Origin: a virus
Strand: one strand, 5' to 3'
Virus record (IMG/VR): IMGVR_UViG_3300027499_000007
Length of the DNA stretch: 64,000 nucleotides
Shown: positions 982 through 11,262 of the stretch, piece after piece
How the letters are laid out: each line of letters begins with the position of its first letter
Numbering within the stretch: position 1 is the stretch's first letter
Translations under genes and position numbers: made by a program
Notes under the pieces: generated by a model
The model's database searches: none
What the model saw: the letters and a program-made list of their open reading frames with translations, nothing else
Told to the model about the DNA's origin: nothing

Positions 982-1057
982 GGACTGTTAACTCAGTTGG
1001 TAGAGTAGCTGACTCTTAATCAGTAAGTCGTAGGTTCGATCCCTACACAGTCCACCA
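982..1057 (+). tRNA. tRNA-Lys(CUU)
   Basis: Cloverleaf, loop CT-CTT-AA, CCA. Confidence 0.97.
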
Positions 1058-1063
1058 GTTTAT

Positions 1064-1115
1064 GGGCCGGCGGTCTAGAACCCGTTGAGCATCGAAAGAT
1101 GTAGTCGGTCCACCA
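1064..1115 (+). ncRNA. 52-nt tRNA-like mini-RNA with Ala-type acceptor (G3.U70, A73, CCA)
   Basis: GGGCCGGC/GTCGGTCC-ACCA stem, two internal hairpins, flanked by the GTTTAT spacer also used between real tRNAs. Confidence 0.7.
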
Positions 1116-1121
1116 GTTTAT

Positions 1122-1267
1122 GTTCCTCCGGTATGGAGCAACCAGCGAGCTCTCAGTGACTCTGCTAGGTGTGGCACAAGGATCTCTCTGGTCACTGTAA
1201 CAGGCTAATGACCTGCTCTGCAAACCTGTCCTTGGTGTACAGTGGTGCAAGTCCACAAGGAACGCCA
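1122..1267 (+). ncRNA. 146-nt tRNA-like RNA with acceptor, T-arm and large insertion
   Basis: GTTCCT/AGGAAC-GCCA acceptor; GTGG-TGCAAGT-CCAC T-arm; internal stems CAGTGAC/GTCACTG and ACAGG/CCTGT. Confidence 0.65.
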
Positions 1268-1279
1268 GTTACCTGGTTA

Positions 1280-1354
1280 GCTCTTGTAGCTCAATGGTAG
1301 AGCTGACCGCTCATAACGGTTAGGTTGGAGGTTCGAATCCTTCCGGGAGCACCA
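1280..1354 (+). tRNA. tRNA-CAU (elongator Met or Ile2, undetermined)
   Basis: Cloverleaf, loop CT-CAT-AA, CCA. Confidence 0.9.
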
Positions 1355-2529: not shown

Positions 2530-2558
2530 TTGACAAATAGATAAGTTGATTGTATAAT
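2530..2558 (+). promoter_or_regulatory. sigma70-type promoter
   Basis: TTGACA-17-TATAAT upstream of tRNA-Ser(GCU). Confidence 0.85.
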
Positions 2559-2676: not shown

Positions 2677-3114
2677 ATGAGTTACACATTGTTTTTAGAT
2701 GACGAGCGTTCACCTAGTCAAGTAACTTGGGCAGTGTTTCCACGTAACAACCTAAGTATCGTTCGCAATTACGATCAGTTTGTTACACATATTAAGCAAC
2801 ATGGCTTACCAGGTTTTGTGTGTTTCGATCATGATTTAGCTGATGAGCATTATGCGGCAATGCTAAAAGAGAATGAATCATCTGACAATAAATTTACGAT
2901 TTGGATGCCAGGTGATGATCTCTCAGATGGTCTAAACATTACATTTGATTATGGTAATGAAAAGACCGGATATGATTGTGCTAAATGGCTAATTGATTAC
3001 TGTGAAAATAATGGATACAAGTTTCCGCAGTTTGTAGTGCATAGCATGAATCCTGCAGGTAAAGTACGTATTGAGCAGTACATAGCTAATGCCCAAAAAC
3101 ATTTAAATATCTGA
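2677..3114 (+). CDS. cyclic-phosphate-processing receiver-domain (cREC-like) protein
   Basis: LFLDDER, FDHDL, TGYDCAKWL and VHSMNP motifs. Confidence 0.75.
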   Translation: MSYTLFLDDERSPSQVTWAVFPRNNLSIVRNYDQFVTHIKQHGLPGFVCFDHDLADEHYAAMLKENESSDNKFTIWMPGDDLSDGLNITFDYGNEKTGYDCAKWLIDYCENNGYKFPQFVVHSMNPAGKVRIEQYIANAQKHLNI

Positions 3115-7024: not shown

Positions 7025-7872
7025 TTGGGCGGCATAACGTCCTTAGGGTAACTACAGCAATGTAGCCAAAGCAGGAAAGCCTACGCACCTGCGCTCGCAA
7101 GAGTCCATTTATGCAAGCCTGGGTCAGGGTTGACTCGCCGTAAGGCGAAAGCAACCCTCGTCACTGTAATGGTTGGCGATAGGCAGTAAGTGAGTGATAT
7201 AAGTCCGAAAGGATACGAACAGAGCCAGTCGGTGAGTTCTAATAGGCTGTGGTGGTCTAGCTGTATCGAACCAAACTCGCGAATGCTGATGATCAACAGG
7301 TAGGTATAGGGTTCGACTGTTCGCGCAGAAGGGCTGAGTACTAGTTTGATAGTTGAACCGATGAGGGGAGACTTGAAAAACCGTTGAGTAGCCCGCAAGG
7401 CAAAAGGCATGAGGTGTGTTGTATTCTGTATCTAACAAGGTATGGAGCAACTGGATCAGCACATCTTGGTAGGTTCGCAAATTGCCTAATGGTAAGGCAA
7501 CAGTCTCTTAAACTGTCGAATCTGGGTTCAATTCCCAGTTTGTATAACAAAAGCGAAAGACTGATCCGGTATGTTGTGAAAGGTGCTTAATACCTGACAC
7601 GCAAGTGAATTGGGTTCACAGAAGCTCGCAAGGCAGAAGTGATTGTTCGGATAGAAGACGTAGACTGTTAGCGCAGTCGAATAGCTCGCAAGGCTAGCGG
7701 AAGATAGATGGACGAATAGCAACATACGACGAGAGAAACGCCACTCTCCAAAAAAGGCAGCACTGAGTGTTACTAGGATAGTCGCAAGGCACCTAGTGGA
7801 TAACGGCTCAACCTTCCTCGCAAGGGACAGGGTACAAGTCAAAGACACTCGTTCAAAGCTGTAATCTCAGGC
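7025..7872 (+). ncRNA. GOLLD-like giant structured RNA
   Basis: About 850 nt, no credible ORF, many GCAA/GAAA-capped hairpins, long-range pair 7117-7123/7866-7872; size, tRNA-island context and embedded tRNA match GOLLD (family call not verified by search). Confidence 0.75.
7475..7546 (+). tRNA. degenerate tRNA-Lys(CUU) embedded in the giant RNA, no CCA
   Basis: D-arm GCCT/AGGC, anticodon arm ACAGT-CTCTTAA-ACTGT, T-arm CTGGG-TTCAATT-CCCAG; only 5-bp acceptor. Confidence 0.8.
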
Positions 7873-7882
7873 TTGGTTAGAT

Positions 7883-8912: not shown

Positions 8913-9110
8913 AATGCGAAAGCCCTCTACACCCATAGACCGAGTGATCACGGTAGGTAACATATGGTGATAGTGCATCAACTGCGAGGGACTAGGGGTG
9001 GAGATATAACCCTGGATTAGGTGGGAGCCCTAAAACTTTTTATGTGCCCGGTTATTGCAAAGATAGCTAATTTTGGTAGACCAATACTAAATACTAGTGG
9101 AGGCCTACCT

Positions 9111-9530
9111 ATGAAAGTATATAATTGTTTAGAATGTGGTGCTGAGTGCAAGTGGGGTCATAGCAAGACTAATAAGTTTTGCAACAATACATGTCAAGCA
9201 GCATATAAATGGAAAAATGAAACAGTGCCGCGCATTGAGAGCGGAACAAGATCTGACCCTTCCACGCTTAAGAAGTATTTTGTTGAAAAGAGGGGCAATG
9301 ATTGCGAAGAGTGCGGCCAAGGTCCAATTTGGAATGGTAAGCCACTGATTTTACAACTAGATCACATAGATGGAAACAGTGACGACAATAGACCTTCTAA
9401 CATTAGATTATTGTGTCCATCTTGTCATTCGCAAACCGATACCTTCGCTGCTAAGGGTCAAGGTTCAAGATATTTGAAAAAAAATACAAAACGTAATAAG
9501 TATCTACAGCAATATAAAACGGGAGATTAG
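9111..9530 (+). CDS. HNH endonuclease
   Basis: RBS GGAGG; CEECG, LDHIDGNSDDN, LLCPSCHSQT. Confidence 0.9.
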   Translation: MKVYNCLECGAECKWGHSKTNKFCNNTCQAAYKWKNETVPRIESGTRSDPSTLKKYFVEKRGNDCEECGQGPIWNGKPLILQLDHIDGNSDDNRPSNIRLLCPSCHSQTDTFAAKGQGSRYLKKNTKRNKYLQQYKTGD

Positions 9531-9607: not shown

Positions 9608-9781
9608 ATGAAGAAAACTTATCTAGTAGAAGACTTGTTTAGTGATATACAAGACGATCCTGATCACGTGCTATTAACTTTTCCACCTGAAGTTATCGAA
9701 AGCACAGGATGGAAACCAGGCGACACACTTAATATTGAAGTTAAAGACGGTTGCATATATATTAACAGGGTAGATGAATAA
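9608..9781 (+). CDS. AbrB/MazE/SpoVT-like small protein
   Basis: LTFPPEVIESTGWKPGDTLNIEV pattern. Confidence 0.6.
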   Translation: MKKTYLVEDLFSDIQDDPDHVLLTFPPEVIESTGWKPGDTLNIEVKDGCIYINRVDE

Positions 9782-9789
9782 ATAGTTTT

Positions 9790-9854
9790 ATCAGTTGTTG
9801 ACAGCTGACAATAAAAGCGGCAAGACCCCGGGGCAGTACCGGGCAGGTCCACCA
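9790..9854 (+). ncRNA. ssrA: tmRNA acceptor piece (permuted two-piece gene)
   Basis: T-arm CCCGG-GGCAGTA-CCGGG then CAGGTCC-ACCA; late promoter ATAAATA 9778-9784; 5' end approximate. Confidence 0.9.
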
Positions 9855-9867
9855 TAAGGAAATTGCT

Positions 9868-10068
9868 ATGACCCAAGACGAAGAGCGTTTGTATTGGAGA
9901 GGCTATCATTTTCCAGGTACGCTCTCCGACGAGGAGTTAGCGGAATGGCATAAGATAGTTGACAAGCACCACGGAAGAGATATTCCTAGCGAAAGCGAAC
10001 AGGAATATTGGGGTCGTGCGCTACTTGCATTTGCTATCGTGCTTGTGCTAGTAGCAGTTTTTTTATGA
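9868..10068 (+). CDS. 66-aa tail-anchored membrane protein inside the tmRNA intervening segment
   Basis: RBS AAGGA; C-terminal hydrophobic helix; fills the gap between the tmRNA pieces. Confidence 0.7.
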   Translation: MTQDEERLYWRGYHFPGTLSDEELAEWHKIVDKHHGRDIPSESEQEYWGRALLAFAIVLVLVAVFL

Positions 10069-10069
10069 T

Positions 10070-10230
10070 GGGCCTGACATAGGATCGATTGACGTGGAAT
10101 AGGAATGCCGAGACTGATTGACTGGCAAAGTGCCAAACAAAGTAACTGCAAACGATAACTTTGCATATGAGGAACTTGCCCTAGCGGCATGATTCTTCGG
10201 GGTAGGAAATACCTAGCAACAGAAAACACC
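10070..10230 (+). ncRNA. ssrA: tmRNA coding piece, tag ANDNFAYEELALAA
   Basis: 5' GGGCCTG pairs with CAGGTCC (G3.U70); tag frame 10148-10192 ends in TGA. Confidence 0.92.
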
Positions 10231-10259
10231 AATAGGAGCCTTCGGGCTCCTATTTTTTT
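10231..10259 (+). terminator. rho-independent terminator
   Basis: AATAGGAGCC-TTCG-GGCTCCTATT plus T run. Confidence 0.92.
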
Positions 10260-10357
10260 GACTAAAATTTGCCACTTTATTTGCTGATAATGTTGTAGAG
10301 CAATAAATACATATAGAGTGTTTTACGATATGCTCTACTGCACACAAAGAGGACACT

Positions 10358-10705
10358 ATGAACGCTTGCTTTACCTGTCTAAACTGTGGTAAGAATAACC
10401 CAGTTAAAGGACACAGTTATACTAACAAATACTGTAACAACAGTTGCCAACAGCAACATCGCAGTAGGTCGTTAGTTAACGAATGGAAACAGCATCCTGA
10501 AACTACAGCGTGGAGACAGGTACCTGAATGGGTTAAGAAATATCTCATTGAGGCCAGAGGTCATAGTTGTCAAGTCTGTGGCAGTAGAACGCATAACGGA
10601 AAGGAAATACCATTAGCGATTGATTATGCTGATGGCAATACTCACAACAGTGCCGAGGAAAACCTGGTACTGATCTGTCCAAATTGTAAGGCACAGAAAC
10701 ATTAA
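10358..10705 (+). CDS. degenerate HNH-family, Cys-rich protein
   Basis: CLNC, CQVCG and ICPNC kept; DHIDG motif altered to DYADG; late promoter at 10303. Confidence 0.75.
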   Translation: MNACFTCLNCGKNNPVKGHSYTNKYCNNSCQQQHRSRSLVNEWKQHPETTAWRQVPEWVKKYLIEARGHSCQVCGSRTHNGKEIPLAIDYADGNTHNSAEENLVLICPNCKAQKH

Positions 10706-10716
10706 GGAGAAACTAA

Positions 10717-11262
10717 ATGAAAACAGTTGGTGATAAAATTGAAACTTTTGCAGTAACAGGTGTTAAGCCAGGCGCACTAACACCAGATGGTGCTTTTGAG
10801 ACCATCACAGAAAAGAGCTTTGAAGGTAAATGGAAGGTAATTGTGTTCTATCCAAAGGACTTTACTTTTGTTTGCCCAACAGAAATCGTAGCCTACGACA
10901 AGCTCAACAACGACTTTGCTGATCGCGATGCGGTACTATTAGTTGGCAGCACAGACAATGAGTTCTGTAAGCTAGCTTGGCGTGCAGCTCATGAGGATCT
11001 AAAGAAAACAAACAGTTGGATGTTTGCTGACGTTGCTCGTGACGAACTAAGTCTTGCTGATCAGCTAGGCATCTTCTATGCACCAGCTGGCGCCGCACTT
11101 CGTGCTACATTCGTTGTTGACCCAGACAACGTTATCCAGCACGTTACTGTTAACAACCTAGACGTTGGTCGTAGCCCAGAAGAAACACTTCGTATACTAG
11201 ATGCATTACAGACTGGCGAACTATGCCCATGCAGTCGTCCTATTGGTGGTGACACATTATGA
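10717..11262 (+). CDS. ahpC: alkyl hydroperoxide reductase C (peroxiredoxin)
   Basis: FYPKDFTFVCPTE and GELCPC. Confidence 0.95.
   Translation: MKTVGDKIETFAVTGVKPGALTPDGAFETITEKSFEGKWKVIVFYPKDFTFVCPTEIVAYDKLNNDFADRDAVLLVGSTDNEFCKLAWRAAHEDLKKTNSWMFADVARDELSLADQLGIFYAPAGAALRATFVVDPDNVIQHVTVNNLDVGRSPEETLRILDALQTGELCPCSRPIGGDTL

What the first reader, a model, noticed from the sequence alone, without database searches (positions are those of the whole stretch)
1064..1115. 52-nt natural mini-tRNA with alanine identity and no anticodon arm
Seen: GGGCCGGC pairs with GTCGGTCC followed by ACCA, giving G1-C72, G2-C71, G3.U70 and A73. Inside are only a GGT-CTAGA-ACC hairpin and a GCATC-GAAA-GATGT hairpin. 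It is flanked on both sides by the same GTTTAT spacer (1058-1063, 1116-1121) that separates real tRNAs at 1867-1872, and its acceptor is nearly identical to this phage's tmRNA acceptor (GGGCCTG/CAGGTCCACCA). Established: G3.U70 with A73 is the AlaRS identity set and minihelices can be alanylated. Inference: a processed, alanylatable RNA that cannot decode. It could be an Ala donor for non-ribosomal transfer, a tag-less ribosome-rescue RNA, or a decoy for tRNA-sensing or tRNA-cleaving defences. I know of no named family.
Basis: partly seen in the sequence, partly recalled or inferred. Interest (0 to 1): 0.88.

Follow-up and report, generated by a model that had tools for sequence, protein, structure and literature searches.

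The report
Conserved anticodon-less phage mini-tRNA gene
A 52-base gene in the tRNA cluster of a large freshwater phage encodes a tRNA-shaped RNA that has an alanine-type acceptor end but no anticodon. It is real, it is kept almost letter for letter in at least five different phages, and it fits no described RNA family, but its job is unknown.

Summary
Window 1064-1115 folds as described: an 8-bp acceptor helix with G3.U70, A73 and CCA, plus two small hairpins and no anticodon arm.

It is not a chance hairpin or a decaying tRNA. I found four further sequence types in other uncultured freshwater phage tRNA arrays, each between different tRNAs. Homology starts exactly at G1 and stops exactly at CCA.

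The acceptor helix varies but always stays paired. It shows C-G/U-A at pair 5 and GU/AU/GC at pair 7. The 33-nt interior is almost invariant. Between arrays the mini is 87-98% identical. Same-anticodon tRNAs have median identities of 66-76%.

Its distribution is patchy. Close relatives lack it or carry a tRNA-Gly in its slot, so it behaves as an exchangeable cassette.

The alanine reading is only partly supported. Four types keep G3.U70 and A73. One type, seen in two independent assemblies, has A3-U70 and U73 with the body intact. Every array also has a normal tRNA-Ala.

Rfam, ARAGORN, GenBank phages and GTDB genomes give no match.

My best reading is a processed tRNA acceptor-end mimic whose invariant body binds an unknown partner. 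This copy is probably alanylatable.

Earlier notes of this scan report analogous, sequence-unrelated mini-tRNAs in other phages.

The parts
1064..1115 (+). the 52-nt mini tRNA-like RNA gene (mature RNA predicted to run from G1 to CCA)
   Evidence: Fold. Homology with four other sequence types begins and ends exactly here. Covariance models R1 and R2 score 84-87 bits.
1064..1071 (+). 5' strand of the 8-bp acceptor helix (GGGCCGGC); G1066 is G3
   Evidence: Pairs with 1104-1111. Pairs 3, 5 and 7 vary among homologues and always stay paired.
1072..1082 (+). hairpin 1, GGU-CUAGA-ACC
   Evidence: The stem is invariant. In L117 the loop changes to UUUAA, which adds a U-A pair.
1083..1088 (+). 6-nt junction CGUUGA
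   Evidence: Only its fourth base (1086) varies, as U, A or G.
1089..1103 (+). hairpin 2, GCAUC-GAAA-GAUGU, plus the single unpaired A1103
   Evidence: Invariant in all five sequence types. It could stack on the acceptor helix to give about 13 bp, close to the 12 bp of an acceptor/T-arm minihelix (inference).
1104..1111 (+). 3' strand of the acceptor helix (GUCGGUCC); U1109 is U70
1112..1115 (+). discriminator A73 and the encoded CCA
   Evidence: The end is ACCA in four types and UCCA in the L120/G047 type. All tRNAs of the array also encode CCA.
1058..1063 (+). GTTTAT spacer after tRNA-Lys(CTT)
   Evidence: The corresponding spacers in other arrays are GATTAT, ATTTAT, TTTAT and TTTAC.
1116..1121 (+). 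second GTTTAT spacer. With the mini it forms the 58-nt unit that is absent from L003.
982..1057 (+). tRNA-Lys(CTT), the upstream neighbour
1122..1267 (+). second non-canonical, CCA-ended tRNA-like element ('X'). It is an independent cassette and not part of the mini.
Evidence: L003 has a shorter X without the mini. L002, L112 and L113 lack both.
1280..1354 (+). tRNA-Met(CAT), the next canonical tRNA

Best explanation
This is a genuine gene for a non-decoding tRNA mimic, and it belongs to an undescribed family. That part I hold at about 0.9. It is co-transcribed with the tRNA array. Because it has a tRNA-like acceptor helix, a discriminator base, an encoded CCA and the same short spacers as its neighbours, it is probably cut out by the enzymes that mature tRNAs: RNase P at G1 and 3' trimming to CCA.

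The product would be a compact three-way junction. The 8-bp acceptor helix can stack on the GAAA-capped hairpin and so imitate the acceptor/T-arm half of a tRNA. A 3-bp stub sits where the rest of a tRNA would branch off.

The acceptor helix is constrained only to pair. The interior is constrained letter by letter. I therefore infer that the interior is a specific handle for a protein or RNA partner, and that the CCA end is what is presented to that partner.

In this phage the end carries the complete alanine identity set, so the host AlaRS very likely charges it. However, the family's conserved function does not require alanine. The specific role I think most likely, at about 0.3, is a high-affinity bait or competitor for a factor that grips tRNA acceptor/CCA ends, such as an immune toxin or nuclease that attacks tRNA tails. 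The confidence of 0.4 is for the mechanism as a whole (an acceptor-end mimic that acts off the ribosome through a partner-binding body).
For: The structure is present and is the dominant fold.

Five sequence types occur in five different tRNA-array contexts:
- window: Lys(CTT) | mini | X
- L114/L115: Leu(TAG) | mini | Val
- G046/L118: Met | mini | Phe
- L117: Ala | mini
- G047/L120: Arg(ACG) | mini | Leu(TAG)
Homology is limited to G1...CCA.

All 80 pair cells are standard pairs. Pair 5-44 is C-G in two types and U-A in three. Pair 7-42 is GU, AU or GC. Pair 3-46 is GU or AU. Slid controls give only 25-48% paired.

Hairpin 2, the GAAA loop and A40 are invariant.

The mini is 0.865-0.98 identical between arrays. 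Same-anticodon tRNAs have median identities of 0.66-0.76, and the mini beats 199 of 204 tRNA comparisons. The phages themselves are distant: G046 shares 11 of 200 ORFs with G000, at a median of 39% amino-acid identity.

Four of the five sequence types were recovered in independent assemblies or samples; L117 rests on a single contig. The mini's 31-mers occur in 22 runs from 16 studies, nearly all freshwater, river or lake metagenomes plus two subsurface ones.

There is no private promoter or terminator.

The A3-U70/U73 type keeps the body intact.

From the literature: immune effectors that act on tRNA tails accept minimal acceptor-stem-plus-CCA substrates (Cas12a3, PMC12851939). Other toxins inspect or extend acceptor ends (FaRel2, PMC11245113; MenT, PMC10435456).
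Against: There is no expression or end-mapping data. The one RNA run laid had no contig over 1062-1223, and 52-nt RNAs are lost from ordinary libraries.

Covariation rests on five sequences and is modest on its own: 40 of 500 shuffles reach the observed score.

The patchy distribution means the very high identity could reflect recent lateral spread rather than long purifying selection. The mini is absent from L002, L003, L112 and L113, from 45 related IMG/VR records, and from the G047 relatives L138, L141 and L142.

No partner is identified. The held fragments contain no SmpB, CCA-adding enzyme, FemAB, AlaX-type domain or RtcB.

A stoichiometric decoy would have to compete with the whole tRNA pool.

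Four of five types do keep G3.U70 with A73, which a pure bait model does not require.
Confidence: 0.4

Rival explanations
1. It is a dedicated alanine carrier. AlaRS charges the mini, and because it cannot decode, its Ala is kept off the normal elongation cycle. The Ala is then handed to a non-ribosomal acceptor, such as an aminoacyl-tRNA-dependent transferase, which recognises the invariant body.
For: The window copy and three other types have G1-C72, G2-C71, G3.U70 and A73. AlaRS charges acceptor minihelices that carry G3.U70 (established knowledge; reviewed in PMC9976931). The design of an invariant body with a variable helix suits a carrier with a fixed docking partner.
Against: The G047/L120 type has A3-U70 and U73, which abolishes alanine identity, yet its body is intact and it recurs in a second sample. 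Every array already has tRNA-Ala(TGC). No Fem-type transferase or AlaX domain was found in the held fragments. G.U to A-U and G.U to G-C changes also occur at pair 7, so the G.U at pair 3 may be ordinary helix drift.
Confidence: 0.2
2. It is a selfish or near-neutral cassette. This would be a tRNA-derived fragment that spreads between co-infecting phages by recombination at the shared CCA/spacer ends of tRNA arrays, helped by homing endonucleases, and that has no function for the phage.
For: The distribution is patchy even among close relatives. In the window it is a 58-nt indel flanked by a 14-nt direct repeat. In G047 it occupies the slot that holds tRNA-Gly(GCC) in L138, L141 and L142, and it shares that tRNA's U73-CCA end, which looks like a recombination joint. 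The mini distances do not follow the tRNA distances: L117 and G047 are closest by their tRNAs and farthest by the mini. HNH and GIY-YIG (SegE-like) ORFs lie in these arrays. Seg endonucleases drive tRNA-region exchange in T4-like phages (PMC13096335, abstract).
Against: None of the substitutions breaks a pair, and hairpin 2 is untouched. The unit is exactly the mature-RNA-shaped segment, which recombination alone does not explain. It persists in five lineages and 16 studies. In one assembly the neighbouring tRNA-Lys carries a 50-nt deletion while the mini stays intact.
Confidence: 0.15
3. It modulates trans-translation in the manner of a tag-less tmRNA. It would bind SmpB or enter stalled ribosomes like the TLD-only tmRNA of mycobacteriophage DS6A, either donating one Ala without a tag or titrating SmpB.
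For: It has an Ala-type acceptor that matches the phage's own tmRNA over the first five pairs. DS6A carries little more than a tmRNA tRNA-like domain (TLD), and a similar molecule inhibits tmRNA whether or not it is chargeable (PMC4131195). The window phage and G046 both encode a permuted tmRNA.
Against: There is no T-loop (a GAAA tetraloop stands in its place), no D-loop analogue and no helix-2 stub. The Rfam tmRNA models and ARAGORN do not see it. The G046 tmRNA acceptor differs from its mini. No smpB was found in the held fragments. The phage's own intact tmRNA makes an inhibitor of that pathway odd.
Confidence: 0.07
4. It is only a processing signal. A tRNA-shaped punctuation mark would recruit RNase P or RNase Z to cut the polycistronic transcript, as mascRNA does for MALAT1, for example to free the neighbouring element X.
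For: It has a tRNA-like acceptor helix and lies in a co-transcribed array. In the window it sits directly 5' of the non-canonical element X.
Against: In L114/L115, G046 and G047 it lies between two canonical tRNAs only 5-6 nt away, where extra punctuation is redundant. X occurs without it in L003. A cutting signal needs shape, not a letter-perfect interior.
Confidence: 0.06

Closest known systems
Synthetic minihelix-Ala / microhelix-Ala substrates of AlaRS (own knowledge; reviewed in PMC9976931)
   Same: An acceptor helix with G3.U70, A73 and CCA closed by a short hairpin. There is no anticodon, and a stacked helix of about 12-13 bp is possible.
   Different: This one is natural, is encoded in phage genomes and has an extra 3-bp stub hairpin and a 6-nt junction. 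Its interior is sequence-invariant, which AlaRS recognition does not require. One natural member lacks G3.U70.
TLD-only ('tag-less') tmRNA of mycobacteriophage DS6A (Hudson et al. 2014, PMC4131195)
   Same: A phage-encoded, anticodon-less RNA with an alanine-type acceptor, made of little more than a tRNA-like domain.
   Different: The DS6A RNA is recognisably a tmRNA tRNA-like domain with a T-arm. The mini has a GAAA tetraloop hairpin instead, is not detected by tmRNA models, and coexists with a complete two-piece tmRNA.
mascRNA and other tRNA-like processing signals (Rfam RF01684)
   Same: A small tRNA-like fold that tRNA-maturation enzymes are expected to excise.
   Different: mascRNA is a cloverleaf with a T-loop that marks the 3' end of a long RNA. 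There was no Rfam hit on the mini. Here the neighbours are themselves tRNAs.
Bacterial Y RNA YrlA (tRNA-like module with Ro/Rsr)
   Same: A non-decoding tRNA mimic found in bacteria and phages, often near RNA-repair genes. A cREC_REC gene lies 1.6 kb away, at 2677-3111.
   Different: In YrlA the ends form the Ro-binding helix and the tRNA-like part has D- and T-arm mimics. The mini's ends form an acceptor helix with CCA. There was no Rfam match.
Phage T4 stable RNAs C and D ('species 1 and 2') in the T4 tRNA cluster (own knowledge, not checked here)
   Same: Small stable non-tRNA RNAs of unknown function, encoded inside a phage tRNA gene cluster and matured with the tRNAs.
   Different: They are much longer (about 120-140 nt), and no sequence relation was tested. 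They are a closer analogue of element X than of the mini.
Armless mitochondrial tRNAs of nematodes (42-54 nt; own knowledge)
   Same: The same size range, with a reduced arm set.
   Different: They keep the anticodon arm and decode. The mini has none.

Membership tests
Canonical tRNA (Rfam RF00005) | Acceptor helix, discriminator base and 3' CCA | tested here: met
   8-bp helix, A73 and encoded CCA.
Canonical tRNA (Rfam RF00005) | Anticodon arm with a 7-nt loop | tested here: not met
   The only loops have 5 nt (CUAGA) and 4 nt (GAAA).
Canonical tRNA (Rfam RF00005) | T-arm with a T-loop and a D-arm, detected by tRNA models | tested here: not met
   No RF00005 hit even at E<=10. ARAGORN gives no call in standard, relaxed or mitochondrial modes.
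AlaRS substrates (tRNA-Ala, tmRNA, minihelix-Ala) | G3.U70 wobble pair in the acceptor helix | tested here: met
   G1066.U1109 in the window copy. Across the family it is GU in 4 types and AU in 1.
AlaRS substrates (tRNA-Ala, tmRNA, minihelix-Ala) | A73 discriminator with G1-C72 and G2-C71 | tested here: met
   Present in the window copy. It is A73 in 4 types and U73 in 1.
AlaRS substrates (tRNA-Ala, tmRNA, minihelix-Ala) | Actual aminoacylation with alanine | not testable with these tools
   This needs an in vitro charging assay or acid-gel Northern blots.
TLD-only tmRNA (DS6A type) | tmRNA-type T-arm with T-loop and a D-loop analogue that bind SmpB | tested here: not met
   Hairpin 2 is capped by GAAA, and there is no single-stranded D-loop analogue.
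TLD-only tmRNA (DS6A type) | Detection by tmRNA models | tested here: not met
   Rfam tmRNA families and ARAGORN find only the two-piece tmRNA at 9754-10283.
tRNA-like processing signals (mascRNA type) | Placed so that its excision creates the end of a larger functional RNA | tested here: not met
   In three of five contexts it lies between canonical tRNAs 5-6 nt away.
tRNA-like processing signals (mascRNA type) | Cleavage by RNase P or RNase Z | not testable with these tools
   No end-resolved RNA data are available. The runs holding it are kept as contigs.
YrlA / bacterial Y RNA | Terminal Ro-binding helix plus an internal tRNA-like module | tested here: not met
   The termini form an acceptor helix with CCA, and there is no Rfam hit.

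The most novel reading that the evidence does not exclude
The mini is one member of a wider, undescribed class of phage 'constant body plus exchangeable acceptor end' RNAs. The invariant three-way junction would dock to a fixed partner. The acceptor end would be retuned between lineages: an Ala identity set in four, and A3-U70/U73 in one (U73 is the main CysRS determinant and is also the tRNA-Gly discriminator). Such RNAs would act either as RNA decoys that neutralise immune effectors attacking tRNA CCA tails or acceptor stems, or as amino-acid carriers for a non-ribosomal reaction.
Probability: 0.25. Interest if true: 0.85.

Novelty: new variant of a known kind. Interest (0 to 1): 0.62.

Why it matters
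Phage tRNA arrays are now read mainly as codon-usage aids or as replacements for tRNAs cut by host immunity. A gene in these arrays that cannot decode, yet is better conserved than almost all the real tRNAs around it, shows that the arrays also carry tRNA-shaped RNAs with another job.

If it is charged, it is a natural minihelix substrate of AlaRS. If it is a bait, it would be an RNA counter-measure to defences that attack tRNA tails. Either way it is small enough (52 nt) for direct biochemical and structural tests.

It also supplies a covariance model for finding further members, and a clean example of cassette exchange at the CCA/spacer joints of tRNA arrays.

Tried and rejected
Known families:
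- Rfam (gathering thresholds and E<=10) and ARAGORN (standard, relaxed and mitochondrial modes) call nothing at 1064-1279.

Collection searches that found nothing useful:
- blastn of the mini against 50,697 GenBank phage records gave no match.
- The exact 21-mer containing G7 gave 0 hits in viral contigs and 0 in metagenome contigs, because other members differ at position 7.
- A gapped pattern on the acceptor arms gave 15 hits, all chance matches in GC-rich coding DNA.
- A degenerate architecture pattern gave, besides the two real members L117 and L118, one chance hit in viral contigs (L116). In GTDB genomes it gave only a chance hit (L119, no tRNAs nearby).
- A crude structural scan of 1.18 Mb of related loci for G3.U70 minihelices found only the known copy plus unconvincing hits.

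Relatives without the mini:
- Covariance models R1 and R2 found no further copies in 1.2 Mb of held loci, in 45 whole related IMG/VR records, or in loci around homologues of a neighbouring nuclease gene.
- Homologues of the adjacent ORFs (GDSL-like, and a 100-aa membrane ORF) mostly lie in other contexts.

Ideas tested and dropped:
- A deletion derivative of the adjacent tRNA-Lys or of the tmRNA. Only the terminal GUCCACCA is shared.
- Co-variation of the mini's acceptor with the tmRNA acceptor. It is not kept in G046.
- A partner gene in the held fragments. No SmpB, CCA-adding enzyme, FemAB, tRNA_SAD or RtcB was found. The fragments are only 4-56% of their genomes, so this says little.

Expression:
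- One metatranscriptome's contigs do not cover the mini, and no RNA run holds its 31-mers. This is uninformative for a 52-nt RNA.

Literature:
- Searches for a described phage mini-tRNA or minihelix found none.

Full report
**What is there.** The window is the reverse strand of an 80.6-kb IMG/VR contig that CheckV rates 21% complete, so it is a fragment of a very large phage. Its first 10 kb hold a tRNA array interleaved with small ORFs, all on the + strand. The array also contains a GOLLD RNA and a permuted two-piece tmRNA.
- The minimum-free-energy fold equals the centroid. It is an 8-bp terminal helix with G3.U70 and G7.U66, a GGU-CUAGA-ACC hairpin directly abutting the helix, a 6-nt junction, a GCAUC-GAAA-GAUGU hairpin, one unpaired A, then A73 and CCA. 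The energy is -19.9 kcal/mol and z is -2.3.
- The GTTTAT spacers and the likeness to the tmRNA acceptor (GGGCCUG/CAGGUCC-A-CCA) are also correct.
- No tRNA or tmRNA finder and no Rfam family sees it, even at E<=10 or in ARAGORN's relaxed and mitochondrial modes.
- There is no private promoter or terminator.

**Local history.** The nearest relative, L002, is 93-97% identical in the flanks. There tRNA-Lys(CTT) is followed after 12 nt by tRNA-Met, so window 1061-1264 is missing. L112 and L113 are the same. L003 has tRNA-Lys, a GTTTAT spacer and a shorter version of the neighbouring element X, but no mini.
- The mini plus one spacer is therefore a 58-nt indel flanked by a 14-nt direct repeat, and it is independent of X.
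- Logan contigs from the probable source sample and from other studies reproduce the window arrangement.
- Their unitig structure (a shared piece 1071-1116 with branches at 1070 and 1117) first showed that the mini also exists in other contexts.
- The identical Lys-mini-X-Met region occurs in further ENA and JGI assemblies. One assembly has a 50-nt deletion inside tRNA-Lys(CTT) while the mini is intact.

**Homologues.** Pattern scans guided by that unitig found four more sequence types, all in tRNA arrays of uncultured freshwater phages.

| Type | Context |
|---|---|
| L114/L115 | Leu(TAG) - GATTAT - mini - GATTAT - Val |
| L118 = G046 | Met - ATTTAT - mini - TATTAT - Phe |
| L117 | Ala(TGC) - TTTAC - mini |
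| L120 = G047 | Arg(ACG) - TTTAT - mini - ATCAAT - Leu(TAG) |

- In every case similarity begins at G1 and ends at CCA, and the flanks are unrelated.
- The G046 and G047 types were each found again in an independent assembly from another sample.
- The mini's 31-mers occur in 22 runs from 16 studies, nearly all freshwater, river or lake metagenomes plus two subsurface ones.

**Pattern of variation.** The variation falls into three groups:
- Acceptor helix. Pair 5-44 is C-G in two types and U-A in three. Pair 7-42 is G.U, A-U or G-C. Pair 3-46 is G.U in four types and A-U in one. All 80 pair cells are standard pairs, against 25-48% when the partners are slid.
- Interior. Both hairpin stems, the GAAA loop and A40 never vary. 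The only interior changes are three loop bases of hairpin 1 in L117, which add a U-A pair, and one junction base.
- Statistics. With five sequences the formal covariation signal is modest: 40 of 500 shuffles reach it. I therefore treat covariation as support for the acceptor helix only.

**Conservation relative to the tRNAs.** This is the stronger observation. Between the five arrays the mini is 86.5-98% identical. The best same-anticodon tRNA pairs have medians of 66-76%, and the mini is the more conserved in 199 of 204 comparisons. The phages are far apart: G046 shares 11 of 200 ORFs with G000, at a median of 39% amino-acid identity.

**Two readings of that conservation.** Both remain open.
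- One is letter-by-letter purifying selection on the interior.
- The other is recent lateral spread of the cassette. Several results favour spread:
  - The distribution is patchy. There is no copy in 45 related IMG/VR records, three of them at least 86% complete, or in relatives of G047.
  - The mini distances do not track the tRNA distances.
  - In L138, L141 and L142 the slot between tRNA-Arg(ACG) and tRNA-Leu(TAG) holds tRNA-Gly(GCC). That tRNA's U73-CCA end matches the odd U73 of the G047 mini, so U73 there may be a recombination joint.
  - HNH and GIY-YIG endonuclease ORFs sit in these arrays. Seg-type endonucleases are known to drive exchange of tRNA regions (PMC13096335, abstract).
- Neither reading makes the mini a decaying remnant. 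No substitution breaks a pair, and the unit that moves is exactly the mature-RNA-shaped segment.

**Alanine identity.** The window copy has the whole AlaRS set (G1-C72, G2-C71, G3.U70, A73). AlaRS charges minihelices with G3.U70 (established knowledge; PMC9976931). So for this copy alanylation is a sound inference, which I put at about 0.55-0.6. At family level the claim weakens.
- The G047 type has A3-U70 and U73, which removes alanine identity, yet its body is intact and it persists in two samples.
- G.U also drifts to A-U and G-C at pair 7.
- Every array has its own tRNA-Ala(TGC).
- The tmRNA acceptor of G046 (GGGGGUG) is unlike its mini.
- Hairpin 2 is not a T-arm, and no smpB was found in the held fragments, so the tag-less-rescue idea has no structural backing.

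**Most likely mechanism.**
- Shown: a discrete unit bounded like a tRNA, a helix that is kept paired, an invariant interior, an encoded CCA, and a position in co-oriented arrays.
- Inferred: maturation by RNase P and 3' trimming; coaxial stacking of the acceptor helix on hairpin 2 to imitate the acceptor/T-arm half of a tRNA; a partner that reads the interior; and charging by AlaRS in this phage.
- I commit to an acceptor-end mimic that works off the ribosome by binding a partner (0.4).
- The most likely specific role is a bait for an effector that attacks tRNA ends. Cas12a3 cleaves CCA tails and accepts minimal acceptor-stem substrates (PMC12851939), and toxSAS and MenT toxins act on acceptor ends (PMC11245113, PMC10435456).
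- The rivals are a dedicated Ala carrier (0.2), a selfish cassette (0.15), a tmRNA/SmpB modulator (0.07) and a mere processing signal (0.06).

**Comparison with what is known.** The mini works like a natural minihelix-Ala. Its nearest published relative in kind is the TLD-only tmRNA of mycobacteriophage DS6A (PMC4131195, read). It fails the defining structural tests of tRNA, tmRNA TLD, mascRNA and YrlA (see the membership table). Literature searches found no description of such a phage gene. Earlier notes of this scan report analogous anticodon-less mini-tRNAs in other phages. None is a sequence look-alike of this one. Those notes are unchecked leads, not support.

**Verdict.** This is a new, small, conserved family of non-decoding tRNA mimics in freshwater phage tRNA arrays, and its function is unknown. 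Interest is 0.62.

Noticed in passing
window 1122-1267 (+): A second non-canonical, CCA-ended tRNA-like element ('X'). It has the acceptor GUUCCU/AGGAAC, a T-arm-like GUGG-UGCAAGU-CCAC, G73 and CCA, with about 100 nt in place of the anticodon arm. L003 carries a shorter form that lacks the 1130-1170 hairpin. L002, L112 and L113 lack it. There is no Rfam hit.
   Followed up: partly
window 7411-7873 (+); also L115:835-1318 (-) and L003:14830-15290 (+): A GOLLD RNA (187.5 bits) with a tRNA-Lys(CTT) embedded at 7474-7548. In L115 the GOLLD gene ends about 270 nt upstream of the mini, separated from it by tRNA-Phe and tRNA-Leu. No GOLLD was found in the held parts of L117, L118 or L120.
   Followed up: partly
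window 9754-10283 (+): A permuted two-piece tmRNA (tag ANDNFAYEELALAA) whose intervening segment holds a 66-aa ORF (9868-10068). G046 has a similar tmRNA (tag ANDNNAYGAFALAA). The tags resemble those of Alphaproteobacteria.
   Followed up: partly
window 2677-3111 (+): An ORF inside the tRNA array with a cREC_REC domain (the cyclic-phosphate RNA-repair receiver; E = 6e-20).
   Followed up: no
L130:1672-2023: One JGI assembly of the same phage has a 50-nt deletion inside tRNA-Lys(CTT), while the mini and X are intact. This could be a real variant or an assembly artefact.
   Followed up: no
L114:1419-1492, L115:119-192 (-), G046 94603-94678; G047 11182-11259 (-): The mini-bearing arrays also carry suppressor-type tRNAs. 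Three have anticodon CUA (reads UAG) and G047 has UCA (reads UGA).
   Followed up: no
L141:2332-2556: Between tRNA-Arg(ACG) and tRNA-Gly(GCC) there is a stretch with a T-arm-like UUGG-UUCGAUU-CCAA followed by ...CCCCACCA. ARAGORN does not call it. It may be another truncated tRNA-like element.
   Followed up: no
L005:11863-11904, L006:11863-11904, L007:12064-12105, L076:11608-11649: A conserved 42-nt stretch with a 7-bp terminal helix (with G.U at pairs 2 and 3) ending GCCA, picked up by the crude minihelix scan. Its context was not examined.
   Followed up: no
window 2530-2558 (+): A perfect sigma-70 consensus promoter (TTGACA, 17 nt, TATAAT) immediately upstream of tRNA-Ser(GCU). It is the only 12/12 match in the first 3 kb.
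   Followed up: no
window 9021-9527 and 10358-10702 (+); L132:4589-5236: HNH endonuclease ORFs flank the tmRNA in the window, and a weak SegE-like GIY-YIG ORF lies 2.3 kb from the mini in G046. These are candidate drivers of cassette exchange in the arrays.
   Followed up: no
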